A stretch of DNA of 64,000 nucleotides, taken from NCBI GenBank assembly GCA_910579135.1, contig CAJTTM010000010.1, positions 716 through 64,715 on the forward strand. The letters are read 5' to 3'. Shown here piece after piece: positions 31,899 to 49,700 of the stretch. The stretch comes from an uncultured Erysipelotrichales bacterium. Lineage in GTDB: Bacteria; Bacillota_I; Bacilli_A; Erysipelotrichales; Coprobacillaceae. Each line of letters starts with the position of its first letter. The first letter of the stretch is position 1. The notes below the pieces were generated by a model. It made no database searches and had not been told where the DNA came from. It saw only the letters and a program-made list of their open reading frames with translations. Both the position numbers and the translations under genes were made by a program.

Positions 31899-31926
31899 AT
31901 ATTAACATCTTTAAGTAAAATGTCAA
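31899..31926 (-). promoter_or_regulatory. sigma-A promoter of the GH16 gene
   Basis: TTGACA (31926..31921), 16-nt spacer, TAATAT (31904..31899). The -35 is the outer end of the palindrome arm. Confidence 0.65.
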
Positions 31927-32082: not shown

Positions 32083-35000
32083 TTATTTATAATCAAATTT
32101 CTTGATTGTTATATAAGCTCCTATAGCACATAATACTAATATAGTATATGGCATAATGATAAATGGATCATTTGTCTTGGCACCATCTGCCTTTTTATTG
32201 TTATCTTTTTGATCAACAACTTTTTCATTATCCACTTTTACCTTATCTCCTAATACATCTTTATCAATTTTATCGTTATCTCCAGGTTTTACTGAATCTT
32301 TTATAGCTGATTTTAATAATTCATCTATAACTTTTTGTAAATCTTTTGCATATTGATCAACTTCGCTTTGTTTAGTGAAATCCTTATTAAAATCTATACT
32401 ATTAATAACATCATTTAAATTTTTAACCTTACCTGCATCATATATTGATAAATCACTTGGAACTTTCTTTAATAATTCATTAACCTTTGTATAATTAGCT
32501 AATTTATATTTAAGCTCTTGAATTGCTTTAGAAATAGCCTTTGCATAACCATCTACTTTTTCCTGTTCATCAATCTCTTTATTATATACAACAGCTTGAA
32601 TTGCTTTGTTAAGATTTTGAACTGATTTTTCATCATAGATAGATAAATCATTTGGAACTTTTTCTAACACTTCTCTTATTCTTGTATAATCAGCCCCACC
32701 ATAAACAAGAATTTCATAAATAACAGGATCAACTGCCCTATCAAAAGTCAATTTCACTGCAAGAATAGATGATTGAATATCAAATAACTTCCATGCCCTA
32801 TCTAATGTACCAATATCTTTCCAATTTCCATTTAAATCTTGAACTCCCACCTTTGCATTAGTTATAGATTTTTGATCTTGTAAGATACCAATTTTTAATA
32901 CATCTTTACAAGTTGTCATTGGATAAATCAATTCTTGACCATCTTTTATTTCTAGAATATTTGAATGTGTTGTGATATTTTGATCATCAATAAAATGACT
33001 ATTGTTAATATTGATAGTGCTATTTTTATCAATATATTTTAAATCACTTGCATCAACGGTCTTATTAAATTCAATTTCATAAACCTGTAGCCAATTGCTA
33101 TTCTTTACAGTTGCGACAAATCTTATATATCTTGCAACAGTACCATTCAATGAAGATGTTGCTAAATATTTATCACCTTCAACAACATAATCAGAAACTG
33201 ACATTTTTTCACCAACATCAGACCAAGTTTTTCCATCTTGTGAAATTTGAACTTTCATTTCTTTAAATCCATCAACTTCTCCAACTTTTTTAGGATTAAC
33301 TGCAAACCATATTGAATAGTCATGTACAGAAATAGTTGAACCTAAATCGACTTGTATATAATTTCCTACCTTTGTTGCAGCTCCTGAATAGAATTTTGTA
33401 TCCATATTCCCATCCATAGCTTTATCAATTGCAAATTCAGATTTATATTCTTTCATATCTGTACTTAAAACAGAAGTATTGGCAGAAGTATCTAAAGTTT
33501 GATTATATTTGATTTCATAAACCTTTACAGGATTTTCACTTGATTCACCTGTTACAAAACGAATATATCTTACTAAGTTTCCATCTAATCCAAATGTAGC
33601 GATACTATGATTTCCACTAGTTGTATATTTATCACTTGATAAATAATCACTTGTATCTGTCCATGTTTTTCCATCTAATGATGTTTGAAGTTTCAAGTTC
33701 TTGAAAGCTTCATTTTTATCCAAATAAATACTTGCATCATATAATGGAACTAATGTACCAAAGTCTACACTTATATAATCACCATTTTGTGATACTCTAT
33801 TTGTAGTTAATGATGTATTCATATCATTATCCATGATTTTATCTGTTTTTGTATCAACAGGTATGTTTGTATCTACTTGAAGATGATTACCATAATCTAA
33901 ATAAGTTGCATCATAATCAATTTCATAAATCTTTGTCCATGTATCAGTTGTTCCTGAGGCAACAAAACGGAAATATCTTGCTGTTGCACCCTTTGCATCA
34001 AATACAATTTTCTTCATTGTATCATCTACATCAATATAGTCACTAACACTTTGAGCTTTTCCAACTTTTGTCCAAATCACACCATCTTTAGAAATTTCTA
34101 ATTCTGTAGAAACAAAACCATCAACTTTACCTTTACTGATACCATTGTATAATTCAACTTTATTTAAAGTTGCAAGATTTCCTAAATCAACAGTTATATA
34201 ATTATTATCTTTTGCATAACTATTTGACCAGAAACATGTTGTCATATCACCATCAACGGCGTTATTCAAAACATTTGTCTTATATGTTGATAAATCTGAT
34301 GTCACATTGACAAATAATGGTTGATATCCTTCAGTTATAGATAACTGTTTCATATCCAATTGTGCATTATCTTTTGTACTTACAATTCGTACATATGCGC
34401 CAGTCACAACTTCTTGATTTGTTATATGATTATCATCAACTGATCCAATATCATTCCATGACAAACCATTTAATGAATATTGTAATTTAAATGCATCATT
34501 TTGAGAAATATTGGCATCAATCTTATAAAGATTCATAGCTTTTGGTAAAGCAATAGTAATATAATCATCTTTATTCATTGTTGTTTTAATATTAGAAATT
34601 GAATATGTTGATCCATCTTTCTTTACTTTTTGAATATCTAGATTATCTACATTTGTTATCATTCTTTCATGAATTGTTGGATAATCAATATTTAAATTTA
34701 ATATTTCCCTTATACTATTTATACTCTTTTCTAATAAAGGAGTAATACGATAAGAACCAACAACAATATAAGATTGTCCTTTAATTGTATCAATAATATG
34801 AGAACCACTCTTAGATAATGTATTTTCTAATTCAGATATCTTATCAATTGTTTTTCCTATATCACCTTGTAATGCATATTCATAGCCTTCCATTGCAGCA
34901 ATTCCTGCTTTAGCCATATCTTCATAAGCATCTATATGTTTTTCAACTTCAGATAACAAATTCTGATTTTTAATTTTTCTTAATGCTTGAACATCATTCA

Positions 35001-38000
35001 ACATTTGTTTGAATTTTGCTTTCATATTAGCAATTTCAGTTTTAAAATTATCTCCATATTTTAAGGCATTTTCAAATCTATCAAGATCTTCTTTTAAATA
35101 TTGAGATTCTTCTAATTTAAATCCTGATTTTCTTTCTGGTAAATCAATATAACTAATATTATCTGCAAAACGTTCAAATTCTTCATTGGCTTCTGGAACT
35201 AACTCTTTAATTGAACGTTTCCAACTTGAAACACTATCAAACGCAGAAGTATTCCATGCATAGTCAGCACCACTAAAAACAGTCACTTTTGATGCATCTG
35301 CTTCTGACATAGGATTCAAGAAGAAACTATTAATATTATCAACATCATTATCTAAAATATCTAATGATCCCATCAATAATTTTCCATAACAATAATCTGT
35401 AACAGGATAATTCCACCAAACACCTAAATCTCTATCTACACCTGTTTTCTTTTTTGGTGTTTCAAAATAATCTTTAGTAATCGCAGACATTGTATGTTGC
35501 CCTGTCCACAATACAACTGTGTCAGGATGAATTGTTTTCATAAATGGAGTAAAATATTTTGCCCAATCTCCACCCCAGCTATTATTGTATCGTGATGTTA
35601 CAGTAATAAATGGTTTTACATCTCCATATTTTTCATTTAAATATTTATAAACATCATTAATAAGTTTAGCATGCTTTTCTCCATCAGCAATACTTAAATC
35701 TAAATCATCATAGAAAATACCAAACTGACGAACACCTAAGCTATAAACTTGTTCAAATTTCGCAATTAAAGTTTCATAATCTCCACTACCATTTGTAAAA
35801 TTATAATCTGCACCTGGATGAATTGTCCAACAGAAATCCATATTGTTTTCATGAGCAATTTTAACTAAATCAGAAATATGTTTAGCTTCTTGCGTTGGAT
35901 AGAGTTTTCTCCATTCATCTCTATGATAAATATCATCTTTTGGAGCATAAATATATGTTGTCATCTTATATTTTGATGTATCTTCAAATAAACTTGCTCT
36001 TTCTTCAAATGTCCAAGGGAATCCATAGAATCCTTCAACATATCCTCTAAACTCAACATCAGGATAATCTGAAATAGTAACTTCAGCTAAATGATTATCA
36101 GCTGTCTTTTGTTCAAAGATTTGTAATAATGACATAACTCCATAATATACACCATCTTCATCTGAACCAATGATTGTGATTTGACCACTCTTATGTTCAT
36201 CATTACTTAGATTCATGACATATCCTTGTTTCTTCTCTAAAGCCTTTTGACTATCTTTTACTGAATCACAAATAACACATTCTTTATCACAATCGTTTGC
36301 TAAAATAATTACTGGATTAGTTCCAACTTCATTAACAATCTGATATGTATATCCATTCTTCTCTAATAATTGTTGTACTTTTAGTAAAGTTGCTTGATCT
36401 TGTTCACCATGAACTAGAATATCAACTGTTTTTCCGTTAAGTAGCATACCATTATTAGAATCATAAGTAATATCTTGAACTGTTGGATAAATAGAAACTG
36501 TTGTCTTTGCAGTAATAATATCATTATCAATTGTTAATAATGCATTTCTTAATTCAATAATTGATAAACGAATATCATTATTAAAGCATTCTTTATCTGC
36601 TATCAATTTTTCTGCATTTGAAATCATCTTAGCATATTTTTGATAGTTTTGTCTTAACATTGTTCCTTCAACTGTACCAACTTCAATTTTATCAAGTTTT
36701 GCTTGAACTTCTTTTATTGCTTTTTCTAACTCTACATTTCGTTTTTCATATGCTTCAATTTCATAAATTGAATATCCATAATTTCCTGAAGGTTCTAAAA
36801 GTTCTAATTTAATATATCTTACAGATGTATCTATATCAGTAAATACTCTTTCTCCTTTATTTCCATCAGTAACCTCTTGAATCAAAGTATAATTTTGTCC
36901 ATCTTTTGAACCTAATACATTATATTTTTTAGCATATGAAGATTCAAATGTGACTATTACTCTATCAAGAGAATATTCTTTTTCTAAATCAACAACAACT
37001 GATTCAACTGGATTTTCTTTATATGCAGCACCATTGTATGCATTACCCCAACGTGAATCTAAATCACCATCTGTGATATGAGAATAATCAAATTTATTGT
37101 TTGTATTCTTATATGTTGAAGTTGTTGTTACTTTTTTATCAAGTGCTATATTTGTATAAATTCTTGAATCTGGATTTTTTTCATATACTTCTAATTCATA
37201 TAGTGCATATCCATATTTATACTTATCACTTTTTGGTGCATGGAAAGCTAATCGTACATACTGTGTTTTAACGTTTCCTAATCCATCATATTCTATTCTT
37301 TGTTTATCCTCATATGGTACATTATCTTTAATATCTTTAATATCAAAGAAAGTTTTTCCATCCAATGATCCTTGAATTGTAAAATCTTTAGCATAAGCTT
37401 TTTCCCATGAAATAGCTATCATATCTATTGGATACACTGCCCCTAAATTAACAGTTAAATTTTCTTCTAGATTACCATTACCATTGTTATAACCATTTGT
37501 ATCATTATATTTCACTTGCCATTTATTAGTATCTATCTTTCCATCAACAACATAATTTGCTCCATAACCAGTTTTTGCATAGGTTGAAGAAGCGCTTGTT
37601 TCTTTATTAAGGGCAAGATTTGGATATCTTGCTTCTAAATTATCAATTGCTTTTTGAATATCACTAACTGCTTGATCAATATCATCTTGTGTAGCAGTAG
37701 ATGATAATGACTTCGCTTTTTGTACCTTTTCTTTAACGATATTTAATGTAGCATCAGAATATTTTTCTTCATTGATTTCATCTACTTTTTTATAGATTTC
37801 ATCTAATGCTACTGTATCCTTTGCCTCATATACTTCTAATTCATAAATTGAATAACCATATTGGCTAGCAGGAGTATGCATAGCTAATCTTACATATCTT
37901 GTTTCTACTGCATCCAATTCATGAACTTCAGTTTCACCAGTACCTTTTGTAATATCTTTGATATCAAAGAAAGTTTCTCCATCAAGCGATCCTTGAAGAG

Positions 38001-39546
38001 TATAACTTGTCGCATGTGCTGCTTCCCATGAAATAGACACAGTTCCAATATTGTAAGTATCTCCTAAATCAACCGTTATTGTTTCTTCAGTGTCTCCTTG
38101 ACCTCTATTAAATGGTGCAACATTATATGCATTCCCCCAACGAGTACCCATGTCACCATCAACCGCATGAGCCACTGCAAATGTACTTTTAGCATAAGTA
38201 GATGAAGCAACTACATTCTTCATATATGCTAAATTACTTGTATTATATTCTAAATTCTTAGGAACATAAATTTGGAAAATCTCATTAATTTCATCATCTG
38301 AGACACTTGCTAGTGAAGATGTTGGATTCTTTGAAATATTAAAAGCTCTTTCTGTGAAATTTCCCCACCATGAAACATCAACGACAACTTGATTTGATGA
38401 AACATTCCCTGGTCTTACAGCTGCAGTATTCACTCCTCCATTGATCCATCCTTCTGGTCTATATTGCCATCCATCAGCAATCACAATGACAGAGCCAACT
38501 GGTAAAGTTGCTTTTGTAAATTTTTGTGTGACTACAAAATTTGGAGCAATAGCACTTGTTGTATCCATAGTATAATGTTTATCATTTTTTGCTGATGAAT
38601 TATAGAATCCACCATTTGTTAATGTAAGTGAAGCTCTCTCTAATTCAGAAAGATCTATCTGATATTGAGATTGAGTCACTTCATATGGTTTTGAAAAAGC
38701 ATTTTTTACTGATTCAATAGCCATTGCTTTTTCTTTATCACTCACACCACTTGGTTTATATGATAATTTATCAATATCTAAACCAGTAAAAGCATGTGCA
38801 AAAGTGATTCCTGCAATATATCTTCCTACATCATAAGTTAAATGATAACCATCTCTTGTAAGAGTATCTCCTATAAAAGATGATCTTGCATTTTGAACAG
38901 ATGTTCCTGTAGGAATTACAAAATCAATATCTTTATTTGTATCGATTTTGTTTTGAACAGCCGATACAATCGCATTATACATTGTTTTTTGATCTTTATT
39001 ATAATTTTTAAAATCTGCATGACTAGAATTACCTTGATATGCCCATGTCATATTCCAACCAAATTGAGCATCTGGTTGTAATTCTCTAACAATATCCATT
39101 AGTTCTTGTAAATCATCATAAGTATCAGGTAAACCACTACTTCCACTTGCTTGTTGAAAAGTAATATAATCCCAATCCTCACTTAATACAGCTGTTTTTA
39201 TGCTTGTACTTTTTGTTGTTACCCAACTACCACTATCATTAGTATAGTATGTATAAGCATTAGAATCGCTTTTTGCATTTTCAAGATGAGTTGCTAAAGC
39301 ACATCCACCAATGTATAAATTCCCTAATTTTACATTTTTTACACCTAAATCTTTAGCGATTTCATATAGATATTGTTGACTATCTACTGAAAAACTATTT
39401 CCTATACTTAATACTTTAAGGGTTTGATCTTCATTCCACTTTGAGTCAACTTCATATCCATAAGAGTTTTTAATATGCATTGGTAAAATCCCTATACATA
39501 ATACTAAAACCATTATTATTTTTAGAAATCTTTTACATTTTCTCAT
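32083..39546 (-). CDS. 2487-aa surface protein: SGNH/DUF4886-like esterase domain + several F5/8 type C (CBM32) modules + GH84 beta-N-acetylglucosaminidase + more CBM32 + FIVAR + TM anchor
   Basis: Signal peptide; GNSFSVDS block; repeated ...YGYSIYELEVYE ends of discoidin modules. GH84 core RGYVEGFYGFPWTFEE ... TYIYAPKDD ... FGIFYDDL. Two FIVAR-like repeats. Start set at ATG 39546 after AGGGAGGA; the track used an upstream TTG. Confidence 0.85.
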   Translation of the reverse strand: MRKCKRFLKIIMVLVLCIGILPMHIKNSYGYEVDSKWNEDQTLKVLSIGNSFSVDSQQYLYEIAKDLGVKNVKLGNLYIGGCALATHLENAKSDSNAYTYYTNDSGSWVTTKSTSIKTAVLSEDWDYITFQQASGSSGLPDTYDDLQELMDIVRELQPDAQFGWNMTWAYQGNSSHADFKNYNKDQKTMYNAIVSAVQNKIDTNKDIDFVIPTGTSVQNARSSFIGDTLTRDGYHLTYDVGRYIAGITFAHAFTGLDIDKLSYKPSGVSDKEKAMAIESVKNAFSKPYEVTQSQYQIDLSELERASLTLTNGGFYNSSAKNDKHYTMDTTSAIAPNFVVTQKFTKATLPVGSVIVIADGWQYRPEGWINGGVNTAAVRPGNVSSNQVVVDVSWWGNFTERAFNISKNPTSSLASVSDDEINEIFQIYVPKNLEYNTSNLAYMKNVVASSTYAKSTFAVAHAVDGDMGTRWGNAYNVAPFNRGQGDTEETITVDLGDTYNIGTVSISWEAAHATSYTLQGSLDGETFFDIKDITKGTGETEVHELDAVETRYVRLAMHTPASQYGYSIYELEVYEAKDTVALDEIYKKVDEINEEKYSDATLNIVKEKVQKAKSLSSTATQDDIDQAVSDIQKAIDNLEARYPNLALNKETSASSTYAKTGYGANYVVDGKIDTNKWQVKYNDTNGYNNGNGNLEENLTVNLGAVYPIDMIAISWEKAYAKDFTIQGSLDGKTFFDIKDIKDNVPYEDKQRIEYDGLGNVKTQYVRLAFHAPKSDKYKYGYALYELEVYEKNPDSRIYTNIALDKKVTTTSTYKNTNNKFDYSHITDGDLDSRWGNAYNGAAYKENPVESVVVDLEKEYSLDRVIVTFESSYAKKYNVLGSKDGQNYTLIQEVTDGNKGERVFTDIDTSVRYIKLELLEPSGNYGYSIYEIEAYEKRNVELEKAIKEVQAKLDKIEVGTVEGTMLRQNYQKYAKMISNAEKLIADKECFNNDIRLSIIELRNALLTIDNDIITAKTTVSIYPTVQDITYDSNNGMLLNGKTVDILVHGEQDQATLLKVQQLLEKNGYTYQIVNEVGTNPVIILANDCDKECVICDSVKDSQKALEKKQGYVMNLSNDEHKSGQITIIGSDEDGVYYGVMSLLQIFEQKTADNHLAEVTISDYPDVEFRGYVEGFYGFPWTFEERASLFEDTSKYKMTTYIYAPKDDIYHRDEWRKLYPTQEAKHISDLVKIAHENNMDFCWTIHPGADYNFTNGSGDYETLIAKFEQVYSLGVRQFGIFYDDLDLSIADGEKHAKLINDVYKYLNEKYGDVKPFITVTSRYNNSWGGDWAKYFTPFMKTIHPDTVVLWTGQHTMSAITKDYFETPKKKTGVDRDLGVWWNYPVTDYCYGKLLMGSLDILDNDVDNINSFFLNPMSEADASKVTVFSGADYAWNTSAFDSVSSWKRSIKELVPEANEEFERFADNISYIDLPERKSGFKLEESQYLKEDLDRFENALKYGDNFKTEIANMKAKFKQMLNDVQALRKIKNQNLLSEVEKHIDAYEDMAKAGIAAMEGYEYALQGDIGKTIDKISELENTLSKSGSHIIDTIKGQSYIVVGSYRITPLLEKSINSIREILNLNIDYPTIHERMITNVDNLDIQKVKKDGSTYSISNIKTTMNKDDYITIALPKAMNLYKIDANISQNDAFKLQYSLNGLSWNDIGSVDDNHITNQEVVTGAYVRIVSTKDNAQLDMKQLSITEGYQPLFVNVTSDLSTYKTNVLNNAVDGDMTTCFWSNSYAKDNNYITVDLGNLATLNKVELYNGISKGKVDGFVSTELEISKDGVIWTKVGKAQSVSDYIDVDDTMKKIVFDAKGATARYFRFVASGTTDTWTKIYEIDYDATYLDYGNHLQVDTNIPVDTKTDKIMDNDMNTSLTTNRVSQNGDYISVDFGTLVPLYDASIYLDKNEAFKNLKLQTSLDGKTWTDTSDYLSSDKYTTSGNHSIATFGLDGNLVRYIRFVTGESSENPVKVYEIKYNQTLDTSANTSVLSTDMKEYKSEFAIDKAMDGNMDTKFYSGAATKVGNYIQVDLGSTISVHDYSIWFAVNPKKVGEVDGFKEMKVQISQDGKTWSDVGEKMSVSDYVVEGDKYLATSSLNGTVARYIRFVATVKNSNWLQVYEIEFNKTVDASDLKYIDKNSTININNSHFIDDQNITTHSNILEIKDGQELIYPMTTCKDVLKIGILQDQKSITNAKVGVQDLNGNWKDIGTLDRAWKLFDIQSSILAVKLTFDRAVDPVIYEILVYGGADYTRIREVLEKVPNDLSIYDEKSVQNLNKAIQAVVYNKEIDEQEKVDGYAKAISKAIQELKYKLANYTKVNELLKKVPSDLSIYDAGKVKNLNDVINSIDFNKDFTKQSEVDQYAKDLQKVIDELLKSAIKDSVKPGDNDKIDKDVLGDKVKVDNEKVVDQKDNNKKADGAKTNDPFIIMPYTILVLCAIGAYITIKKFDYK
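35704..35709 (-). other. GH84 catalytic Asp-Asp codons
   Basis: Reverse complement reads GGT ATT TTC TAT GAT GAT TTA (GIFYDDL), in frame (codons 1280-1281). Confidence 0.75.
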
Positions 39547-39693
39547 GCCTTTTCCTCCCTTCAATAAGAAAACTCTGTATTTTTTTATATCCCTCCTTAT
39601 CTTATAAACCCAAAATATATATCATAATATGAATCATTTAATGAATTGTTATAATATCTCACACCCTTTCTTTTTTTTATTTCTGTATTTTAG

Positions 39694-39761
39694 ACAAAAA
39701 AAGGCCAGAAAAATACATCAATGTATTTCTCTGGTCTTGCCTAATTGAATAGTCACAATCC
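39694..39761 (-). promoter_or_regulatory. RAT (ribonucleic antiterminator) overlapping an intrinsic terminator, copy 1
   Basis: Minus strand GGATTGTGACTATTCAATTAGGCAAGACC (39761..39733), compared with the LicT/SacY RAT GGATTGTTACTG..CAGGCAAAACC. Its 3' GACC starts the hairpin GACCAGAGAAATACAT-TG-ATGTATTTTTCTGGCC, followed by T7. Confidence 0.8.
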
Positions 39762-39773
39762 TTGTCTACTAAA

Positions 39774-39802
39774 ATTATACACTTTTTAAAATCTTTTGTC
39801 AA
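39774..39802 (-). promoter_or_regulatory. consensus sigma-A promoter in front of RAT1
   Basis: TTGACA (39802..39797), 17-nt spacer, TATAAT (39779..39774). The RAT begins 12 nt downstream. Confidence 0.75.
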
Positions 39803-39824
39803 TTTGGATATGATATTTTGCTTA

Positions 39825-40658
39825 TTATTTCACATTTATGTTCCTCTTAATATGTATACATAAATATGTCTGTTCATCTGGAGAAAGTTCATAATTATAA
39901 TTTTTCTCAATTAAAGAAACTATTCTATTAATACACATAGACAATCTTGCATCATCTTTTAATAACATTCTTATATCATATGTTGTATCTATAAAGGATA
40001 TCTCTTCATTTCTAAAAATTCTTTCTCCTAAATATTTTAAATGCATAGAAATGCGTGCATATTCTAATGAACTTGTTTCTAATTCTATTTTCATTGTTTT
40101 TTGAATTAAATCAATAACTTCCTTAGTAAAAGTTAATATCTTAGTTGCATTATTCTCTTTATTTGATAAAGAGAAGTTAACAAGATGTAAAGCTATATAA
40201 CCAGCTTCATGTTCATCTAAAAGAATTCTCGTTTTTTTAAATATATATTGAATTGCCCATAATCCTACTTCAAATTCTTTTTTATATAAGACTTTTGTCT
40301 CATCAAGTATAATATTAGGTAAATAAACATGTTCTTTATATCGTTTCATAGCAAACGATATATGATCACTAATTGCAATAAATATCTCACTACTAAAATC
40401 TGTATCTAATTCTTTACTTGCCTTTTTTATAATTTGTTCAGTTATTTCAAAATAAACAACAGGTATATTACGTAAAGATTTTTCTAGTCTTTTTTTATGT
40501 TCATCTTGAAACACATATCTTTTTTCTATTTTACTTTCATCAACCAAATCTCCAGCTTTTTTTCTAAAACCAATGCCTGATCCAGTTAAAATAATATCTT
40601 GTTTATCTTCAGATAATGCAACTACACTATTATTATTAAATATTTTTAATATAATCAT
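39825..40658 (-). CDS. BglG/LicT/SacY-family PRD transcription antiterminator
   Basis: 277 aa. CAT domain MIILKIFNNNSVVAL...GSGIGFRKK followed by two PRDs. Confidence 0.9.
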   Translation of the reverse strand: MIILKIFNNNSVVALSEDKQDIILTGSGIGFRKKAGDLVDESKIEKRYVFQDEHKKRLEKSLRNIPVVYFEITEQIIKKASKELDTDFSSEIFIAISDHISFAMKRYKEHVYLPNIILDETKVLYKKEFEVGLWAIQYIFKKTRILLDEHEAGYIALHLVNFSLSNKENNATKILTFTKEVIDLIQKTMKIELETSSLEYARISMHLKYLGERIFRNEEISFIDTTYDIRMLLKDDARLSMCINRIVSLIEKNYNYELSPDEQTYLCIHIKRNINVK

Positions 40659-40668
40659 AACATTTCAC

Positions 40669-42129
40669 CTACCTAATAATATCATTCATCGCTTCAACTA
40701 TAAAATCAACTTGAGTTCCTATAATAGCTTGCAATCCATTTTTTCCCATCTTTACAATACCACTTACTCCAGTATTAATAATAGCTTGTTCATCAACTAA
40801 TTCTATATCTCTAAGCCTTACTCTTAATCTTGTAATACAACTATCTACTGCTATTATATTACTTTTACCACCTAATGCTTCCACATATAGAATAGCTAAT
40901 TCATCGTAATCTTGACTATCTAATGTTATGCCATTTTCTATATTTGTATCTTCAAATACAAGTTCATCTACTTCTCTTCCTGGTGTCATAAGATTATATC
41001 GAAGAATCATAAACTTAAATAAATAATAATATACAAAAGCAGATATAATTCCTAATGGAATCAACATATATGCATTATGTGAAAAAGGAGCCTTCATACT
41101 TAGGACATAATCAATAAAACCTGCAGAAAAACTAAATCCTGCCAACCATTTCATTGAGGCAGCTATAAAAACAAAGATCCCTGTTAAAATAGCATGCATC
41201 AAATATAATGATGGAGCTACAAACATAAATGCAAATTCTATTGGTTCTGTTACTCCTGTTAAAAAAGAAGCAATTGCACTAGATAATAATATAGCCCCTA
41301 CTTTTTTCTTGTTCTCTGGTCGAGCATATTGATACATAGCAAGTGCTGCAGCCGGTAATCCAAACATCATAACTGGAAAAAATCCAGCTTGATACATTCC
41401 AGTTTGTCCTAATATTCCTCCAGAAATTGATCCCCAGAATTTACCAATATCATTAATATTTGCAACATCAAACCAAAATACAGAATTTAAGGCGTGATGC
41501 AATCCTGTTGGTATTAGTAATCTATTAAAGAAGGCGTAAATACCAGCACCTGTAGCTCCTAATTTCGCAATCATTTCACTAAAAACAACAAATAGATTAT
41601 AAAGTATAGGCCACACTAAAATTAATATAATGGATAATAATAACATTGCGAATGTACACACTATAGGAGAAAAACGTCTCCCATTAAACAATGAAAATGC
41701 ATTAGGAAGTTGAATATTATGATAACGGTCATATATTTTAGCGCTTATTAACCCAACAAGTATTCCTATAAAAGCATTTGGTGTGCTTTCAAAACATTGT
41801 GGAACTTTTGAGATTGATACATTCATCAATAAAGATATTGTATCCTGTGATAATAATCTATTTACTAACAAATAGGATACGATTGTACTCATCATAATCA
41901 TAGAATCTTTTTGTTCTGCCATTCCAATCGCAATGCCCACTGCAAACAATATTGGTAAATTATCTATAATTGCTCCTCCTGATTCAATTAAAAAGGCAGC
42001 AATTATATTATTGGCTCCCCATCCAATTGGATCAATCCAATATCCTACCCCTTTTAATATTGCTGCAATAGGCATAATAGAGACAGGTAACATTAATGAT
42101 TTTCCTAATCGCTGTAAATAATTCAACAT
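40669..42129 (-). CDS. PTS glucose/GlcNAc-family EIICB component
   Basis: EIIC (LQRLGKSLMLPVSIMPIAAIL) plus C-terminal EIIB with the phospho-Cys motif SCITRLRV. Start probably ATG 42129 (9 nt after AAGGGAG); the track gives 42138. Confidence 0.85.
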   Translation of the reverse strand: MLNYLQRLGKSLMLPVSIMPIAAILKGVGYWIDPIGWGANNIIAAFLIESGGAIIDNLPILFAVGIAIGMAEQKDSMIMMSTIVSYLLVNRLLSQDTISLLMNVSISKVPQCFESTPNAFIGILVGLISAKIYDRYHNIQLPNAFSLFNGRRFSPIVCTFAMLLLSIILILVWPILYNLFVVFSEMIAKLGATGAGIYAFFNRLLIPTGLHHALNSVFWFDVANINDIGKFWGSISGGILGQTGMYQAGFFPVMMFGLPAAALAMYQYARPENKKKVGAILLSSAIASFLTGVTEPIEFAFMFVAPSLYLMHAILTGIFVFIAASMKWLAGFSFSAGFIDYVLSMKAPFSHNAYMLIPLGIISAFVYYYLFKFMILRYNLMTPGREVDELVFEDTNIENGITLDSQDYDELAILYVEALGGKSNIIAVDSCITRLRVRLRDIELVDEQAIINTGVSGIVKMGKNGLQAIIGTQVDFIVEAMNDIIR

Positions 42130-42171
42130 ATAACTCATCTCCCTTTTTATCTACAAATAAATATTTGTTTC

Positions 42172-42200
42172 TTGAAAATATAATGCTCACTAAGTATAAT
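42172..42200 (+). promoter_or_regulatory. near-consensus sigma-A promoter of the EIIA gene
   Basis: TTGAAA (42172..42177), 17-nt spacer, TATAAT (42195..42200). The palindrome ACAAATA-AA-TATTTGT (42153..42168) lies just upstream. Confidence 0.65.
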
Positions 42201-42269
42201 AAAATTATGAAACTAGTTTTCTTGAAAAAACATATCATTTATCTTTAATTTTAGAAAGGACAATATTAT

Positions 42270-42752
42270 ATGAAATCCTTACAACAATTGTTTAAAAATA
42301 AAATTAATACTATCTATGCTATTGCAGATGGAAACCTTATTCGTATAGAAAATATCCCTGATACAGCATTTTCTCATCGACTTATTGGTGATGGATTGGC
42401 ATTACAAATTCATTCATCGAACATTTATGCTCCTTGTGATGGTACAATATCTATGATAGCTTCAACAAAGCATGCTTTCATTATTACATTGTCTAATGGT
42501 ACAGAAATTCTTATTCATATAGGACTTTATCATGATAAACCTGTTTCCGAATACTTTCATTACCATGTACAAGTTGGACAACCAGTAACAACAAATAATC
42601 TTATTCTTACATTAGATGATAATTTTTTAAAATCAAATGACTATAAAATTATTGTTCCTATAGTTATTCTTAATTATCAAGAACATCCTATCAAATCATT
42701 AACAACTGTATCATATATTGAACATGGTAAAAAAATAATGACTTGTAAATAA
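42270..42752 (+). CDS. PTS glucose-family EIIA component
   Basis: 160 aa. DTAFSHRLIGDGLAL ... KHAFII ... ILIHIG, with both His of the Crr-type active site. Confidence 0.8.
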   Translation: MKSLQQLFKNKINTIYAIADGNLIRIENIPDTAFSHRLIGDGLALQIHSSNIYAPCDGTISMIASTKHAFIITLSNGTEILIHIGLYHDKPVSEYFHYHVQVGQPVTTNNLILTLDDNFLKSNDYKIIVPIVILNYQEHPIKSLTTVSYIEHGKKIMTCK

Positions 42753-42783
42753 TCATTATTTGAGCTTTTTTTATCATTAGGTG

Positions 42784-42854
42784 AAAAAACAAGCCTCAAA
42801 ATTATTAAAAAAATAAATATTTCGAGGTCTTTCCTAATTCAATAGTCACGATCC
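42784..42854 (-). promoter_or_regulatory. RAT overlapping an intrinsic terminator, copy 2
   Basis: Minus strand GGATCGTGACTATTGAATTAGGAAAGACC (42854..42826), 26/29 identical to RAT1. Hairpin AAGACCTCGAAATATT-N9-AATAATTTTGAGGCTT followed by GTTTTTT. Confidence 0.75.
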
Positions 42855-42862
42855 TTACACAT

Positions 42863-42891
42863 ATAATATATGATTTATCACAACTTTTCAA
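42863..42891 (-). promoter_or_regulatory. sigma-A promoter in front of RAT2
   Basis: TTGAAA (42891..42886), 17-nt spacer, TATTAT (42868..42863). The RAT starts 8 nt downstream. Confidence 0.65.
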
Positions 42892-42978
42892 TTCATTTTT
42901 ACTGATTTTTCGATAGTTCTTAAAAATTCTCATTCATGCTATAAATACACTTATATTTCATTTTTAGCATTTTTTTTA

Positions 42979-43012
42979 CAAAAAAACGAAGTAAAATCAC
43001 TTTTACTTCGTT
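42979..43012 (-). terminator. rho-independent terminator of rpoBC
   Basis: Minus strand AACGAAGTAAAA-GTGA-TTTTACTTCGTT followed by T7. Confidence 0.85.
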
Positions 43013-43021
43013 TTATTTTAT

Positions 43022-46000
43022 TTAATTAGTAAATGCTTCTTCTTCAACATTTTTAGCTTGTTCTAAAGTTTCATTGTTATCAATTTCATCTAATTGCTCA
43101 ACAATTGTTTCTAATTCTTCTAATTGTCTAGCTTCTTCATTTTCAGCAGTAATTGTTTCAGGAGATTTCAATGCACCTCTTAAACCAGTACCTGCTGGTA
43201 ATAATTGACCAATAATTACATTTTCTTTTAATCCACGTAAATCATCAACTTTTCCTTTAATAGCAGCATCAGTTAAGATTCTTGTTGTTTCTTGGAATGA
43301 TGCAGCAGATAACCATGAATCAGTTTCAAGTGAAGCTTTAGTTATACCTAGTAAGATAGGTCTAGCTACAGCTGGGTGTTTTCCATTTCTTAAAACGTCT
43401 CTATTGATTTCTGTAAATTTCGCAACATTAATACGAGTTCCTGGTAAAGCCCCCGTATCTCCACCTTCAACAATACGCATCTTTCTTAACATTTGTCGAA
43501 TGATAATTTCGATATGTTTATCAGAAATCTCAATACCTTGTAAACGATATACTTTTTGAACTTCTTTTAAGATATAGTTTTCAACTGCTTCAACATCTGC
43601 AACTTCTAATAATTCTTTTGGATCAATTGAACCTTCAGTAATCTTACCTCCAATTTCAACACTATCCCCAACACTAACTCTTAATTTTGCTCCATAAGGG
43701 GCTAAATAACTCTTAGTTTCTAAAACATTTGTAACAACGATTTCTGCTCTACCATTGTTATCAATAATGTTTGAAACTTCACCATCAATTTCAGAAATAA
43801 TTGATTTAGCTTTTGGATTTCTAGCTTCAAATAACTCTTGAATACGAGGAAGACCTTGAGTGATATCTGCACCACCTGCAACTCCACCCATATGGAAGGT
43901 ACGCATTGTAAGCTGTGTACCTGGCTCACCGATAGATTGAGCAGCCATAATACCAATTGTTTCTCCTAATTCAACTTCATTACCAGTTGCTAGATTACGT
44001 CCATAACAACGTTTACATACACCATTTTGAGCACGACATCCAAATATTGAACGAATTTCAACAGATGTAATTCCTGCATCACTTATTTTTTTAGCTGTAA
44101 TCTCATTCATCAATTCATTTGCATGAACAATGATTTCTCCACTTTGAGGATCTATGATATCTTTTAATGAGTAACGTCCAACTAATCTATCATATAATGG
44201 AACGATAACTGAGTTATCAGCAGTATTATATAATTCTGTTACAATAAATCCTCTATCAGTACCACAATCATCCTCTGTAATAATAACTTCTTGAGCAACG
44301 TCTACTAAACGTCTTGTTAAATAACCTGAATCAGCTGTCTTTAAGGCAGTATCTGTAGACCCTTTTCTGGCACCATGTGTAGAAATGAAGAATTCAGATG
44401 CTGTTAAACCTTCTCTAAATGAAGATTTGATAGGCAACTCAATAGTTTCACCTTTAGGGTTAGACATCAATCCACGCATACCTACTAACTGAGTAAAGTT
44501 TGAAATATTACCACGCGCTCCTGAATCAGACATGATGAAGATTGGATTATTTCTATCAGATTCGAATTCTTCTTTTACAACATCTTGAACTTCATCCTTA
44601 ACACCTTCCCATAATTTAATAACAGATGTCTTTCTTTCCTCTTCAGTTAATTTACCTTTACGATATAATTTAGTAATAACTTCTAGTTTATCATCAGCTT
44701 TATCAAATAATTTATATTTACTATGAGGAACCTGAATATCATATACAGATACAGTAATTCCTGCAATTGTAGAATAATAGAAACCTTGATCTTTTAATTT
44801 ATCAAGCATTGCACTAGTATCCTTCATTACAGAAGTCTTGAATACTTCATTAATGATATTACCTAATGCTTTTTTATTTAAAGGCATAATAATTGCTTGA
44901 TTCTTAATATGCTCTTTAATATCAGTTCCCATCGGTACAAAATATTTATCAGGAGTTCTCTCTAAGTTTTCTTTACTTGGATCGTTAATGAATGGGAAAG
45001 TCCCTTCAAAGATTTGATTAAATATAATCTTACCAACAGTAGTAATTAAATAACTGTTATTTTGTTCTTCAGTAAATGTAGAGTTATTTAATGATTTACC
45101 TCTAATTGCAACTCTTGTATGCAAATGTACAGTTTTTGCATCATATGCCATTAAAACTTCATTAACATCTGCAAATACAGTTCCTTCTCCAACTTTTCCA
45201 GCAACTTCTAATGTTAAATAGTAGTTACCAAGCACCATATCCTGTGAAGGAGTAACGATTGGTTTACCATCTTTAGGTCCTAAAATGTTATTAGATCCTA
45301 ACATTAATTGTCTTGCTTCTTGAATAGCTTCTTCTCCTAAAGGAACATGGACAGCCATTTGGTCACCATCAAAATCAGCATTAAATGCAGGTGTAACCAA
45401 CGGATGCAAACGAATTGCACGTCCTTCTACAAGTTTAGGCTCAAATGCTTGAATACCTAATCTATGAAGTGTAGGAGCACGGTTTAATAATACTGGATGC
45501 TGTTTAATGACTTCTTCAACAATTGGCCAAATACGGTCATCCATCTTTTCAATTAATCTTTCAGCAGCCTTAATATTTGTTGCGATTTCTTCTCTTACTA
45601 ATCCACTAATAACAAATGGTTTAAATAAATTTAATGCCATTTCACGTGGAATACCACATTGATACATTTTTAAAGTAGGTCCAACTGCAATAACTGAACG
45701 TCCTGAATAATCAACACGTTTACCCAAAAGGTTTTGTCTAAAACGACCTTGTTTACCTTTTAAAGTATGGCTTAATGATTTTAATGGTCTTCCTCCTGCA
45801 CCTGTAATAGGTTTAGAACGGCGTCCATTATCAATTAAAGCATCTACTGCTTCTTGTAACATACGTTTTTCATTTTGTACAATAATAGAAGGAGTTCCTA
45901 ATTCTAATAATTTCTTTAAACGATTATTACGTGTAATAACACGTCTATATAAATCATTCAAATCACTTGTCGCAAAACGTCCACCATCTAATTGTAACAT

Positions 46001-46720
46001 CGGTCTTAAATCAGGTGGTATAACTGGAAGAGCATCTAAGATCATCCATTCAGGTTGATTATTTGATGATCTAAACGCGTCAATTGCTTCTAATCTCTTC
46101 AATAATTTAGAACGTTTTTGTCCTTGAGCTTCTTTTAAAGCTTTGCTAACATTTTCAAACTCTTCATCTAAATCAACTTTTTGAAGCAATACTTTAATTG
46201 CTTCAGCACCAATTTTAGCCTCAAATTGATTACCAAATTTCTCATAACAACTACGATAATCTCTTTCAGATAAAACTTGTTTATATTCTAAAGGTGTACT
46301 TCCTTTATCAGTAACAACATATGAAACGAAATAAATAATTTCTTCAAGTTGTTTTGCAGTCATATCAAGAATAAGCCCCATTCTTGAAGGAATACCTTTT
46401 AAATACCAAATATGTGCAATAGGAGTTGCTAATTCAATATGCCCCATACGTTCACGACGTACAGATGATTTTGTAACTTCTACACCACAACGATCACAGA
46501 CAACACCTTTATATCTAACTTTCTTATACTTACCACAACTACATTCCCAATCCTTAGAAGGTCCAAAAATCTTTTCACAATATAAACCATCTTTTTCTGG
46601 CTTTTGTGAACGATAGTTAATTGTTTCTGGTCTTTTGACCTCACCATAAGACCACTCACGAATCTTTTCTGGTGAAGCCAAACCAATTTGAATTGCGGAA
46701 AAATTATTTACATCTGCCAT
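43022..46720 (-). CDS. rpoC: DNA-directed RNA polymerase subunit beta'
   Basis: 1232 aa. Zn-finger [20 protein letters not shown] and catalytic NADFDGDQM. Confidence 0.98.
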
Positions 46721-46734: not shown

Positions 46735-49700
46735 CTATTCTTCTTCATTTTCTTCATCAAAACTAAACATACTGTCAATAACACTATCTAAAGTACTATC
46801 AGTATCTTCATCAAAGCTTTCGCTTTCTTCTAAACTTTCTTCAGGTAAGTCTTCCTCATTTTCTTCTACTTCTTTAGTTGGAGCAGTATCAATAGAAATA
46901 GGGAAACGACGTTCTTCATCTTCGATTTTTCTCTCTCCGATTTCATTACCTTCATCATCAATAAGTCTAATATCTAAAGCTAATGCTTGAAGTTCTTTCT
47001 TTAAAACTCTGAATGCTTCAGGAATTCCTGGTTCAGGTAATTTTTGTCCCTTAACAATAGCCTCATAAGTTTTAACACGTCCAACAACATCATCAGACTT
47101 AACTGTTAACATTTCACGTAATGTATAAGCAGCACCATAAGCTTCTAATGCCCAAACTTCCATTTCTCCAAATCTCTGACCACCATTTTGAGCTTTACCT
47201 CCTAATGGTTGTTGAGTAGTTAATGAATAAGGACCAACTGATCTTGCATGTAACTTATCATCAACCATGTGAGCAAGTTTAATCATATACATAACACCAA
47301 CAGAAATCTTAGAATCGAAATATTCACCAGTACGACCATCAATAACACTTTGTTTTCCATCAATAGGCATACCTGCTTCTTTCATGACTTCTTCTAAGTC
47401 TGAACTATTTAATCCATCGAAAGCTGGAGTTGCAAAATACATTCCTAATTCTCTTGCAGCATATCCTAAATGAAGTTCAAGAACCTGTCCGATATTCATA
47501 CGAGAAGGAACTCCTAATGGATTTAACATGATATCTAAAATAGTACCATCTTCAAGATGTGGCATATCTTCAATTGGTAAAATTTTTGAAATGACACCCT
47601 TATTACCATGACGACCTGCCATCTTGTCACCTTCACTAATCTTACGTTTTTGAACAATATAAACCTTTACAACTTTATTTACACCTGGTTGTAATTCATC
47701 ACCATTTTTTCTTGTAAAGACTTTAATATCATGAACAATACCTGCACCACCATGAGGAACACGTAAAGAATTGTCTTTAACCTCACGTGATTTTTCACCA
47801 AAGATTGCAAGCAATAATTTTTCCTCAGCAGATAATTCAGCTTGACCTTTTGGAGTGACCTTACCAACTAAAATATCTCCTTCTTTAACTTCAGCACCAA
47901 TCATAATGATACCTTCGCTATTTAAGTTCTTTCTTGCTTCCTCACCAACATTAGGAATATCTCTTGTAATTTCTTCAGGACCTAATTTTGTATCACGACA
48001 TTCAATACTATATTCTTCAATATGAATAGATGTATAAACATCATCTTTAACTAATCTTTCAGACATGATAACAGCATCTTCATAGTTATAACCATTCCAT
48101 GTCATGAAACCAACTAAAACATTTTGTCCTAGAGCTAATTCACCTTGTTCCATAGAAGGACCATCAGCTAGTACTTCACCTTTTAATACTTTATCTCCTA
48201 CTTTTACAATAGGCTTATGATTAATACAGCTTCCAGCATTAGAAATAATAAATTTTAATAAACGATAGTTCTTAGGACCATTTTCCCCTTCAACAATAAT
48301 CTTCTTTGCATCAACATAAGTAACAACACCATCTTCTTTTGCAACAACCGCTGCTCCAGAATCTCTTGCAGCTTGGAATTCCATACCTGTTCCAACAAAT
48401 GGAGCATGTGGATTCAATAATGGTACTGCTTGACGTTGCATGTTAGCACCCATTAAGGCACGAGTCGCATCATCGTTTTCAAGGAAAGGAATACATGAAG
48501 TTGCAACTGAAACGATCTGTTTTGGAGAAACGTCAATAAAATCAACATCTTCTGGCTTGGCCATAATGTTTTCTCCTAAATGACGAGCAATAACTTGTTC
48601 ATCTAACATTCTTCCATTTTCATCAACTTGTATCTTAGCTTGTGCAATAATATAATTCTTTTCTTCATCAGCAGTTAAATAACGCACATCATTTTCATCT
48701 ATAACACTATTATTAACCTTACGATAAGGTGTTTCAATAAATCCATATTTATTAATTTTAGCATAAGATGCTAATGTAGAAATCAATCCAATGTTTGGAC
48801 CTTCAGGAGTTTCGATCGGACAAATACGCCCATAGTGAGATGCATGAACGTCACGTACTTCATAACCTGCACGATCTCTTGATAAACCACCTGGCCCAAG
48901 CGCAGATAAACGACGCTTATTTGTCAACTCTGCAAGAGGATTAATTTGATCCATAAACTGTGATAATTGAGATGAAGAGAAGAACTCTTTAATAGCAGCA
49001 GTTAATGGTCTAATATTTGTAAGAGATTGTGGTGTTACACTATCAACTTCTGATAATGACATTCTTTCTTTTACAACTCTTTCCATTCTTGATAAACCAA
49101 TTCTAAATTGATTTTGAATTAATTCACCAACAGAACGAACACGTCTATTACCTAAATGATCAATATCATCTAATAAACCAATACGACTCATTAAACTAAC
49201 TCTATCATCAGCAGCTAAATCTAAAGAATCAAAAATATCAACTAAATTTAACATATATGAATAAGCAGCTAACATATCAGAAATAGTAATAAATTTACTA
49301 TCTAATGATAAATCAGTACCTATTACTCTCATTTTCTTTGCACGACTATCATCAACATAAACTTCAATGACTTGAATTCTACTATGTGAATTCAAAAACT
49401 CATTTGTTTTTACATCACGCATATGTGCTCCTGCTTGGAAAACAGGTCTTAAAATTTCAATTTTATCTTTTGTAAGTAATGTTCCTTCTTTCATAACAAC
49501 ATTACCATCAATATCTATAACATCTTGAGCTAAAATTCTATTTGTAATACGATCTAATAAATCAATCTTTTTACCTAATTTAAAACGTCCTGCTTTTGCT
49601 AAATCATATCTTTTTGCATCAAAAAACTTTGCAAACAATAAAGAATTAGCCCCTTCTAATGTTGCAGGTTCTCCTGGTCTTAACTTATTATATATCTCTA

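What the first reader, a model, noticed from the sequence alone, without database searches (positions are those of the whole stretch)
39694..39802. PRD-antiterminator RAT/terminator gate in front of a 7.5-kb secreted GH84 glycosidase gene
On the minus strand a textbook promoter (TTGACA-17-TATAAT) is followed after 12 nt by GGATTGTGACTATTCAATTAGGCAAGACC. This closely matches the LicT/SacY-type RAT (GGATTGTTACTG..CAGGCAAAACC). Its last four bases are also the first bases of a 16-bp-arm terminator followed by U7, so RAT folding and terminator folding are mutually exclusive. The BglG/LicT-family gene ends 63 nt upstream. Known RAT gates control PTS permeases and cytoplasmic phospho-glycosidases or sucrases. 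Here the first gene downstream is a 2487-aa cell-surface SGNH + GH84 + CBM32 enzyme. That would couple PTS phosphorylation status directly to deployment of an extracellular glycan-harvesting enzyme, a wiring I do not know to have been described.
Basis: partly seen in the sequence, partly recalled or inferred. Interest (0 to 1): 0.75.

Follow-up and report, generated by a model that had tools for sequence, protein, structure and literature searches.

The report
Sugar-sensing RNA switch before secreted glycosidase
A gut Coprobacillaceae bacterium has a real, conserved antiterminator RNA switch in front of a giant secreted GlcNAc-releasing enzyme, but this kind of wiring is already known (SacY/sacB, LicT/licS, NagY/hylA), so it is a new example and not a new principle.

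Summary
On the minus strand a 12/12 promoter (39802-39774) is followed 12 nt later by a 29-nt RAT (39761-39733). The RAT's 3' end forms the foot of an intrinsic terminator with a U7 tract (39736-39696). A CAT-PRD-PRD antiterminator gene ends 63 nt upstream, and a 2487-aa secreted DUF4886 + 6xCBM32 + GH84 protein follows.

The gate is not chance. In related Coprobacillaceae genomes the same RAT type follows the orthologous antiterminator gene and precedes GH84, GH20 or other giant secreted proteins. In 48 of 55 distinct leaders, the 5' arm of an otherwise unrelated terminator starts inside the RAT. The basal RAT pairs covary.

The PTS gene upstream of the antiterminator gene scores as GlcNAc-specific EIICB, so GlcNAc is the likely inducer.

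The novelty claim fails. SacY/sacB and LicT/licS already link RAT gates to secreted enzymes. E. faecalis NagY/NagE (2023, 2025) links a GlcNAc PTS to cell-wall-anchored and secreted glycan-degrading enzymes.

Verdict: a new member of a known kind, and modestly interesting as a gut-commensal regulon. A second, partly degraded RAT (42854-42826) points antisense into the EIIA gene and is unexplained.

The parts
39774..39802 (-). Sigma-70-type promoter, TTGACA-17-TATAAT
   Evidence: 12/12 match and the best in the 39000-43200 scan. Most related leaders have a promoter-like site ending 7-25 nt before the RAT.
39733..39761 (-). RAT1, a 29-nt ribonucleic antiterminator hairpin: GGAUUGUGACUAUUCAAUUAGGCAAGACC
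   Evidence: 49.5 bits, E 3.5e-11. Across 20 distinct RATs the canonical structure is 93.8% paired, with changes on both sides at pairs 1-29, 2-28, 4-25 and 12-19. The free hairpin is weak, at -1.3 to -3.3 kcal/mol.
39696..39736 (-). Intrinsic terminator. The core stem is 39734-39705, the extended stem starts at G26 of the RAT (39736), and the U7 tract is 39702-39696.
   Evidence: It is also the first terminator after the EIICB-antiterminator operon, because only 22 nt separate the antiterminator stop codon from the -35 hexamer.
39825..40658 (-). CAT-PRD1-PRD2 transcription antiterminator, 277 aa
   Evidence: Pfam CAT_RBD E 9.4e-21 and two PRD stretches, E 4.2e-30. PDB matches are LicT, GlcT and SacY. 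His99, His158, His206 and His269 are invariant in 8 orthologues. It scores below the NCBIfam cut-offs for LicT (246 vs 300) and GlcT (178 vs 320).
40669..42138 (-). PTS EIICB, GlcNAc-specific type (NagE-like); the presumed sensor
   Evidence: Pfam PTS_EIIC + PTS_EIIB. TIGR01998 'N-acetylglucosamine-specific IIBC' scores 578.2 bits, above its 553.2 cut-off; the glucose model fails its cut-off.
42270..42752 (+). PTS EIIA (Glc family), transcribed divergently
   Evidence: Pfam PTS_EIIA_1, E 2.7e-36. In more distant relatives this gene has its own sense-strand RAT.
32083..39546 (-). Gated gene: a 2487-aa secreted, membrane-anchored DUF4886 + 6xCBM32 + GH20b + GH84 beta-N-acetylglucosaminidase
   Evidence: The ATG at 39546 has a GGGAGG ribosome-binding site, and the N-terminus MRKCKRFLKIIMVLVLCIGILP looks like a signal peptide. 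The C-terminus has a hydrophobic segment and FIVAR-like repeats. A weak terminator-like hairpin with a T run follows the stop codon.
42826..42854 (-). RAT2, a second and partly degraded RAT: GGAUCGUGACUAUUGAAUUAGGAAAGACC
   Evidence: 41.5 bits. C5 and A23 break two of the three middle-stem pairs, and the canonical structure costs +2.8 kcal/mol.
42784..42831 (-). Terminator-like hairpin plus GUUUUUU, overlapping RAT2 by 6 nt
   Evidence: (-11.2 kcal/mol). It faces the 3' end of the EIIA gene, so read-through would run antisense to EIIA before reaching EIICB.
42863..42891 (-). Promoter-like site TTGAAA-17-TATTAT, ending 8 nt upstream of RAT2
   Evidence: 10/12 match.

Best explanation
This is a BglG/SacY-type antitermination switch.

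Proposed mechanism:
1. Transcription starts at the 39802-39774 promoter, and probably also reads in from the upstream EIICB-antiterminator operon.
2. By default it stops at the terminator at 39736-39696.
3. When GlcNAc is being taken up, the NagE-type EIICB no longer phosphorylates PRD1 of the adjacent antiterminator.
4. The antiterminator dimer then binds and stabilises the weak RAT hairpin (39761-39733).
5. That withholds the G/CC foot of the terminator, so the stem no longer reaches the U tract.
6. RNA polymerase reads into the gene for a 2487-aa surface-anchored GH84 N-acetylglucosaminidase.

The enzyme's product, GlcNAc, is the presumed inducer, so the circuit would be a product-induced feed-forward loop for harvesting host glycans.

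Shown here: the sequence elements, the competing folds, the domain content, and conservation of the protein-RAT-terminator-glycosidase arrangement.
Inferred: the RNA-protein pairing, GlcNAc as the signal, and the direction of phospho-control.
For: - Elements and folds.
- Antiterminator: CAT domain, two PRDs and four invariant histidines.
- EIICB passes the GlcNAc-specific model cut-off.
- Orthologous antiterminators (68-84% identity) occur in Coprobacillus and Thomasclavelia relatives.
- In relatives the same RAT type follows the antiterminator gene and precedes different secreted enzymes: GH20+CBM32 in L009/L010, a 1260-aa DUF4082 protein in L017/L053, GH84 in L018/L141 (C. cateniformis) and in L140. 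L048 has the same RAT after its antiterminator gene, but the downstream gene was not checked.
- The L010 RAT keeps pair 2-28 through G-C to A-U.
- 48 of 55 distinct leaders (135 of 144 instances) have a terminator of -8 kcal/mol or better whose 5' arm starts inside the RAT. The start is usually at position 26, and the terminator sequences are otherwise unrelated.
- Of 126 RAT instances with a downstream ORF, most precede signal-peptide-bearing proteins of 1000-2500 aa: GH20, GH84, GH3, GH141, a GH51-like protein and beta-helix proteins.
- Experimental precedent: the NagY/NagE/hylA system (PMC9981650, PMC12502629).
Against: - There is no transcript or binding data for this organism.
- The same RAT core also precedes beta-glucoside-type PTS EIIBCA genes that sit next to only 30-37%-identical antiterminators (L128, L083, L107). 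The RAT sequence alone therefore does not identify the cognate protein.
- The wiring is not universal. The T. spiroformis GH84 leader has no RAT. L015, L016 and L139 have no glycosidase after the antiterminator gene.
- RAT/terminator overlap is only 2-4 nt, which leaves an 11-bp residual hairpin.
- The metagenome hits are redundant, since 83 fall in one GH20 cluster. The search pattern fixed RAT positions 6-26, so covariation could only show at the outer pairs and against outgroup RATs.
Confidence: 0.75

Rival explanations
1. The gate is real but is served by a different, paralogous BglG-family antiterminator encoded elsewhere in the genome, for example a beta-glucoside-type one. The inducer would then not be GlcNAc, and adjacency to the NagE-type operon would be incidental.
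For: The same RAT core (ACUAUUNAAUUAGG) precedes EIIBCA beta-glucoside-type PTS genes and antiterminators that are only 30-37% identical to this one. No position distinguishes the two sets of RATs. In B. subtilis, SacT, SacY and LicT cross-recognise similar RATs (PMC1635312).
Against: The antiterminator-RAT-glycosidase adjacency recurs in at least five species-level lineages, while the surrounding genes and the enzyme family change. The EIIA gene of the same PTS carries a sense-strand RAT in six loci. The gated enzymes are mostly HexNAc-releasing (GH84, GH20), which fits a GlcNAc sensor.
Confidence: 0.15
2. The hairpin is simply the terminator of the EIICB-antiterminator operon. The RAT would be a decaying relic, and GH84 would be expressed from another promoter downstream of 39694.
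For: There is no other terminator between the antiterminator stop codon and the hairpin. A 9/12 promoter-like site lies at 39652-39624. RATs do decay in this family: RAT2 is degraded, the L016 copy is further degraded, and T. spiroformis has lost the RAT in its GH84 leader.
Against: RAT1 is intact and is among the best-scoring members of the family (49.5 bits). It sits 12 nt behind a perfect promoter. 9/12 promoter matches occur at the chance rate, 32 found against 32.1 expected. The same promoter-RAT-terminator unit recurs before glycosidase genes that are not preceded by an antiterminator gene.
Confidence: 0.07
3. The match to the RAT consensus is a chance resemblance in AT-rich DNA.
For: None beyond the low G+C content of the region.
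Against: Shuffles give 0.00 expected matches against 2 observed. The model E-value is 3.5e-11, and the next-best hit in the window scores 15.8 bits. The element is conserved with covariation.
Confidence: 0.01

Closest known systems
NagY / NagE / hylA of Enterococcus faecalis (PMC9981650, 2023; PMC12502629, 2025)
   Same: A BglG/SacY-family antiterminator is encoded beside a GlcNAc-specific PTS gene. RAT/terminator gates sit in front of a large signal-peptide-bearing, surface-anchored glycan-degrading enzyme with F5/8-C and FIVAR domains. The regulon has several targets, including glycosyl hydrolases. GlcNAc, a breakdown product, acts as inducer.
   Different: - Gene order is EIICB then antiterminator here, against nagY then nagE in E. 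faecalis.
- The PTS is split into EIICB plus a separate divergent EIIA here, against a fused EIICBA.
[quoted passage not shown]
- The targets are GH84/GH20 exo-hexosaminidases of 1500-2500 aa, not a PL8 lyase.
- The lineage is Erysipelotrichales.
- Orthology to NagY was not tested, because no NagY sequence was available.
LicT / bglPH + licS of Bacillus subtilis
   Same: The protein architecture is the same, and LicT is the best NCBIfam and PDB match. Both have a 29-nt RAT overlapping a terminator. One target, licS, is an extracellular glycanase that has its own RAT (PMC12591593).
   Different: The protein scores below the LicT equivalog cut-off (246 vs 300). The RAT has G26, whereas LicT targets need A26 (PMC1635312). 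The sensor is a GlcNAc-type PTS, not a beta-glucoside-type one.
SacT/SacY with sacPA and sacB of Bacillus subtilis
   Same: RAT1 has A3, G8 and G26, the combination found in the sacPA (SacT) RAT according to PMC1635312. sacB encodes a secreted enzyme under RAT control.
   Different: The top stem uses A12-U19 where the B. subtilis RATs have G12-C19, and the loop is UUCAAU, not the UAAA tetraloop. The system concerns an amino sugar and not sucrose.

Membership tests
BglG/SacY-family PRD antitermination system | N-terminal CAT (co-antiterminator) RNA-binding domain | tested here: met
   PF03123, residues 1-56, E 9.4e-21. It aligns to the LicT and SacY CAT structures 1l1c and 1auu.
BglG/SacY-family PRD antitermination system | Two PRDs, each with two conserved phosphorylatable histidines | tested here: met
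   PF00874 matches two stretches. His99, His158, His206 and His269 align with the histidines in the DH(I/N)F, ALH, HLK and IHI motifs of LicT. All four are invariant in 8 orthologues.
BglG/SacY-family PRD antitermination system | A ~29-nt RAT hairpin with lower and upper internal loops, matching the consensus GGAUUGUNACU...AGGCAANACC | tested here: met
   The canonical structure is 93.8% paired across 20 RATs, with changes on both sides at 4 of 8 pairs. The structure string itself was taken from the literature and from memory.
BglG/SacY-family PRD antitermination system | The 3' end of the RAT overlaps the 5' arm of an intrinsic terminator in the leader | tested here: met
   The overlap is 2 nt of the core stem or 4 nt of the extended stem. 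The same design occurs in 48 of 55 related leaders.
BglG/SacY-family PRD antitermination system | A cognate sugar-specific PTS EII is encoded with the antiterminator | tested here: met
   The EIICB gene lies immediately upstream on the same strand, and the EIIA gene is divergent. The layout is conserved in the orthologous loci examined where that region is present; L011, a pseudogene copy, lacks the PTS genes.
BglG/SacY-family PRD antitermination system | The protein binds the RAT, and antitermination depends on the sugar and on phosphorylation | not testable with these tools
   This needs EMSA or MST, reporter fusions and Term-seq.
LicT proper (NCBIfam NF046042 equivalog) | Whole-protein score at or above the curated cut-off | tested here: not met
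   246.4 bits against a cut-off of 300. GlcT scores 177.7 vs 320, BglG 152.8 vs 322 and LacT 110 vs 500.
LicT proper (NCBIfam NF046042 equivalog) | The target RAT has A at position 26 (PMC1635312) | tested here: not met
   RAT1 and nearly all related RATs have G26.
NagY-type GlcNAc antiterminator (E. faecalis) | The partner PTS is GlcNAc-specific | tested here: met
   TIGR01998 scores 578.2 bits, above its 553.2 cut-off. This rests on annotation; transport was not tested.
NagY-type GlcNAc antiterminator (E. faecalis) | Orthology to EF1515 and a NagY-type RAT (atypical, with foot consensus GCRUGGA) | tested here: inconclusive
   No NagY sequence was available. The RAT here is the classical type with a GACC foot, unlike the one described in PMC9981650. 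This suggests an analogous recruitment and not orthology.

The most novel reading that the evidence does not exclude
In gut Coprobacillaceae/Erysipelotrichales, one GlcNAc-PTS-coupled antiterminator may be the master switch for a dispersed regulon of giant secreted host-glycan-degrading enzymes. These include GH84, GH20, GH3-esterase, GH141, GH51-like and beta-helix proteins, each behind its own promoter-RAT-terminator cassette. In the window's lineage the circuit would also include a RAT-gated transcript that runs antisense through the EIIA gene before reaching the EIICB-antiterminator operon. That transcript would couple autoinduction to antisense damping of EIIA.
Probability: 0.35. Interest if true: 0.45.

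Novelty: new member of a known kind. Interest (0 to 1): 0.3.

Why it matters
The finding gives a concrete, testable regulatory handle on how common gut Erysipelotrichales (Coprobacillus and Thomasclavelia relatives) decide when to deploy very large mucin/host-glycan hexosaminidases. The short RAT motif can also be used to enumerate that regulon in genomes and metagenomes. It does not change what is known about PRD antitermination. It extends the NagY-type logic from Enterococcus to another order and to GH84/GH20 enzymes.

Tried and rejected
- **Wrong spacer.** My first RAT patterns used a 9-nt spacer where 8 is correct and found nothing. This was my error, corrected.
- **Flawed terminator heuristic.** The first version picked U runs inside hairpin loops and under-counted terminators. 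It was replaced.
- **Rfam.** No family covers the RAT, either at gathering thresholds or at E up to 10 over 39500-43000.
- **Catabolite control.** A cre-like site search found nothing near the gate: 5 hits in the window against 4.4 expected, none in 39500-43000.
- **Further RATs in the window.** None were found; the next-best model hit scores 15.8 bits. GH16 (28738-31848) has no RAT and appears to have its own promoter region.
- **Literature.** No paper combines 'antiterminator' with GH84, with hexosaminidase + mucin + PRD, or with a PRD-type antitermination system in Coprobacillus or Thomasclavelia.
- **Orthologous loci that lack the wiring.**
  - T. spiroformis: the GH84 leader has no RAT.
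  - L015, L016 and L139: no glycosidase follows the antiterminator gene.
  - L011: the antiterminator is frameshifted.
- **Not done.** I did not identify the species that carries the dominant GH20 cluster.

Full report
**Observation**

- TTGACA lies at 39802-39797, then a 17-nt spacer, then TATAAT at 39779-39774. This was the only 12/12 promoter match in the 4.2 kb scanned.
- Twelve nt later comes GGATTGTGACTATTCAATTAGGCAAGACC at 39761-39733.
- A hairpin follows (stem 39734-39705, 13 pairs, 4-nt loop), then CC and U7.
- The 89-nt leader folds at -25.6 kcal/mol, z = -5.2 against dinucleotide shuffles.
- The RAT pattern with up to 3 mismatches occurs twice in the window against 0.00 expected.

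Two details need correcting.
- The '16-bp arm' is 13 contiguous pairs, extended by one G-C pair across an A-C mismatch.
- The two folds are not fully exclusive. With the RAT nucleotides blocked, an 11-bp A/U-rich hairpin (-9.7 kcal/mol) still forms, but it ends 4 nt before the U tract. From general knowledge of intrinsic terminators, that gap should cripple termination.

The free RAT hairpin is weak, at -1.3 to -3.3 kcal/mol, as expected for a structure that needs a protein to hold it.

**Gene context**

Read along the minus strand, the order is:

| Position | Feature |
|---|---|
| 46735-50472, 43022-46720 | two large ORFs whose counterparts in the same-species contigs carry RNA polymerase beta and beta' domains (rpoB, rpoC) |
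| 42270-42752 (+ strand) | divergent EIIA-Glc gene |
| 40669-42138 | EIICB |
| 39825-40658 | CAT-PRD-PRD antiterminator |
| 39696-39802 | the gate |
| 32083-39546 | 2487-aa DUF4886 + six F5/8-C (CBM32) + GH20b + GH84 protein |
| 28738-31848 | 1036-aa GH16/FIVAR protein |

- The EIICB passes NCBIfam's curated cut-off for the GlcNAc-specific IIBC model (578.2 vs 553.2) and fails the glucose model.
- The antiterminator matches LicT best but lies below every equivalog cut-off.
- Its four PRD histidines (99, 158, 206, 269) align with those of LicT and are invariant in eight orthologues.
- The GH84 protein starts MRKCKRFLKIIMVLVLCIGILP, which looks like a signal peptide. It ends in FIVAR-like repeats and a hydrophobic segment.
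- Only 22 nt separate the antiterminator stop codon from the -35 hexamer. The gate's terminator is therefore also the first terminator after the EIICB-antiterminator operon.

**Source and relatives**

The exact antiterminator protein occurs on gut metagenome contigs and on two MAGs with identical gene order. Orthologues at 68-84% identity are named by their sources as Coprobacillus sp., C. cateniformis, Thomasclavelia spiroformis and T. saccharogumia, and Erysipelotrichaceae.

**Comparative test of the gate**

In relatives the same unit follows the antiterminator gene, but the gated gene differs.
- L009/L010 (69% identity): TTGCAT-17-TATAAT, then the RAT GAUUUGUUACUAUUUAAUUAGGCAAGAUC, then an unrelated terminator that starts at GAUC. 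The gated gene is a 1468-aa GH20 + CBM32 protein. A second RAT lies before another GH20 gene.
- L017/L053: a 1260-aa DUF4082 protein.
- L018/L141 (C. cateniformis): a 2014-aa GH84, and a further RAT before a 1514-aa beta-helix/Flg_new protein.
- L140: a 1717-aa GH84 behind a RAT with a shorter loop.
- L048: the same short-loop RAT follows its antiterminator gene, but the gene after it was not examined.

The L010 RAT keeps pair 2-28 by changing G-C to A-U.

Twenty distinct RATs were aligned, including two streptococcal outgroup RATs. On that alignment the classical RAT structure is 93.8% paired. Pairs 1-29, 2-28, 4-25 and 12-19 show changes on both sides, and the structure beats all shifted registers.

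**Metagenome survey**

Together with the earlier loci this gave 144 instances and 55 distinct leaders.
- In 48 of the 55 leaders (135 of 144 instances), a hairpin of -8 kcal/mol or better followed by a U run starts inside the RAT. The start is usually at position 26 (GACC), and the hairpin sequences fall into many unrelated types.
- Most leaders have a promoter-like site ending 7-25 nt upstream of the RAT.
- The 126 downstream ORFs cluster as follows:

| Count | Downstream protein |
|---|---|
| 83 | GH20 + CBM32 + Flg_new, about 1700 aa |
| 9 | the window-type GH84 |
| 5 | GH20 + FIVAR |
| 5 | a second GH84 type |
| 5 | PTS EIIBCA (L128 type) |
| 4 | beta-helix/Flg_new |
| 3 | GH51-like/FIVAR |
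| 2 | another GH20 (L010 second RAT) |
| 2 | DUF4082 protein, 1260 aa |
| 2 | antiterminator gene |
| 1 each | GH3 + esterase; GH141; a second PTS EIIBCA type (L075) |
| 1 each | three doubtful or unassigned ORFs (L047, L051, L102) |

Caveats: these counts are of contigs, not species. The search pattern fixed RAT positions 6-26.

**Specificity caveat**

The same RAT core sits next to antiterminators that are only 30-37% identical to this one and are paired with beta-glucoside-type PTS genes. The RNA sequence alone therefore does not name its protein. Assigning RAT1 to the adjacent antiterminator rests on three things: recurrent adjacency across lineages, the HexNAc-releasing nature of most targets, and the fact that the EIIA gene of the same PTS carries a sense-strand RAT in six loci.

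At the positions that set specificity in B. subtilis, RAT1 has A3, G8 and G26. That is the sacPA/SacT combination. LicT needs A26, and the SacY target sacB has U3 and U8 (PMC1635312).

**Mechanism**

The best reading is the canonical one. Without GlcNAc, the phosphorylated EIICB keeps PRD1 phosphorylated and the protein inactive, so transcripts end at 39696. With GlcNAc uptake, the protein binds the RAT and withholds the foot of the terminator, and GH84 is made. GH84 releases GlcNAc from host glycans, which closes a feed-forward loop.

Sequence, folds, domains and conservation are shown. Binding, the inducer and the phospho-logic are inferred from the family.

**What is known**

- SacY/SacT control sacB, a secreted levansucrase, and LicT controls licS, an extracellular beta-glucanase (PMC12591593, PMC1635312).
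- In E. faecalis the antiterminator NagY is encoded with the GlcNAc PTS gene nagE. It binds RAT/terminator leaders of nagY-nagE and of hylA, a cell-wall-anchored PL8 lyase with F5/8-C and FIVAR domains. hylA expression depends on nagY, and nagE is induced by GlcNAc (PMC9981650).
- The NagY regulon found by RNA-seq and RIP-seq includes glycosyl hydrolase genes such as ef0114 and ef2863 (PMC12502629).
- No paper in the searchable library links an antiterminator to GH84, or describes a PRD-type antitermination system in Coprobacillus or Thomasclavelia.

The finding is therefore a new member of a known kind.

**Loose ends**

A second promoter-RAT-terminator unit (42891-42784) lies after rpoC and points into the antisense strand of the EIIA gene before reaching EIICB.
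- Two of its three middle-stem pairs are broken.
- The same position holds an intact RAT in L015 and a badly degraded one in L016.
- More distant relatives instead gate EIIA on its sense strand.
- Whether RAT2 autoregulates the operon, damps EIIA by antisense transcription, or is a relic of a rearrangement cannot be decided here.

Noticed in passing
window 42784-42891 (-), relative to EIIA at 42270-42752 (+): A second promoter + RAT + terminator unit (RAT2, 41.5 bits) would send read-through transcripts antisense across the whole EIIA gene before reaching EIICB. RAT2 carries C5 and A23, which break two middle-stem pairs. The same layout occurs in L015 (intact RAT) and L016 (degraded RAT). Six more distant loci gate EIIA on its sense strand instead.
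   Followed up: partly
window 31907-32006: Upstream of the GH16/FIVAR gene there are two tandem 40-nt units (83% identical). They form long inverted repeats around TTTTACTAAAA / TTTTAGTAAAA (35-37-nt arms, 84-94% complementary). This could be an operator array or a bidirectional hairpin. A response-regulator gene (27972-28640) lies just downstream of GH16, followed by a 468-aa ORF (26569-27975) that I did not annotate.
   Followed up: partly
L138 8890-9070 (Thomasclavelia spiroformis CP102275): The orthologous antiterminator-to-GH84 leader has a strong promoter and starts with GGATTGT. It then continues as a long AT-rich hairpin with no RAT, and the model finds no hit. The EIIA gene of the same locus does have a sense-strand RAT at 6372-6400. 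The gate seems to have been lost or replaced at GH84 in this species.
   Followed up: partly
L011 9983-10824: In one Erysipelotrichales genome the antiterminator orthologue (68% identity) is split by a frameshift into two ORFs. It sits next to an rplK-like gene with no PTS genes and no glycosidase, so it is probably a pseudogene.
   Followed up: no
L006 4087-11550: In one JGI metagenome contig of the same species the GH84 gene is called as two ORFs (1047 and 1377 aa). RAT2 there carries C28U. This is either a real disruption or an assembly error.
   Followed up: no
L048 3332-10588: In this relative a RAT-gated 1296-aa GH51-like/FIVAR gene lies directly upstream of the inverted EIIA gene and the EIICB-antiterminator operon. 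A second RAT follows the antiterminator gene. The operon is thus bracketed by two gates, and any read-through from the first would also run antisense to EIIA.
   Followed up: no
window 52217-52341 (-): Ribosomal protein L10 leader (Rfam RF00557, 65.5 bits) in the ribosomal protein / RNA polymerase gene region upstream of rpoB and rpoC. An ordinary feature.
   Followed up: no
L025/L042, L050/L063, L074/L095 (pairs of loci from single metagenome contigs): Several long metagenome contigs carry two RAT cassettes tens of kilobases apart, in front of different glycosidases. This fits a dispersed multi-target regulon.
   Followed up: no
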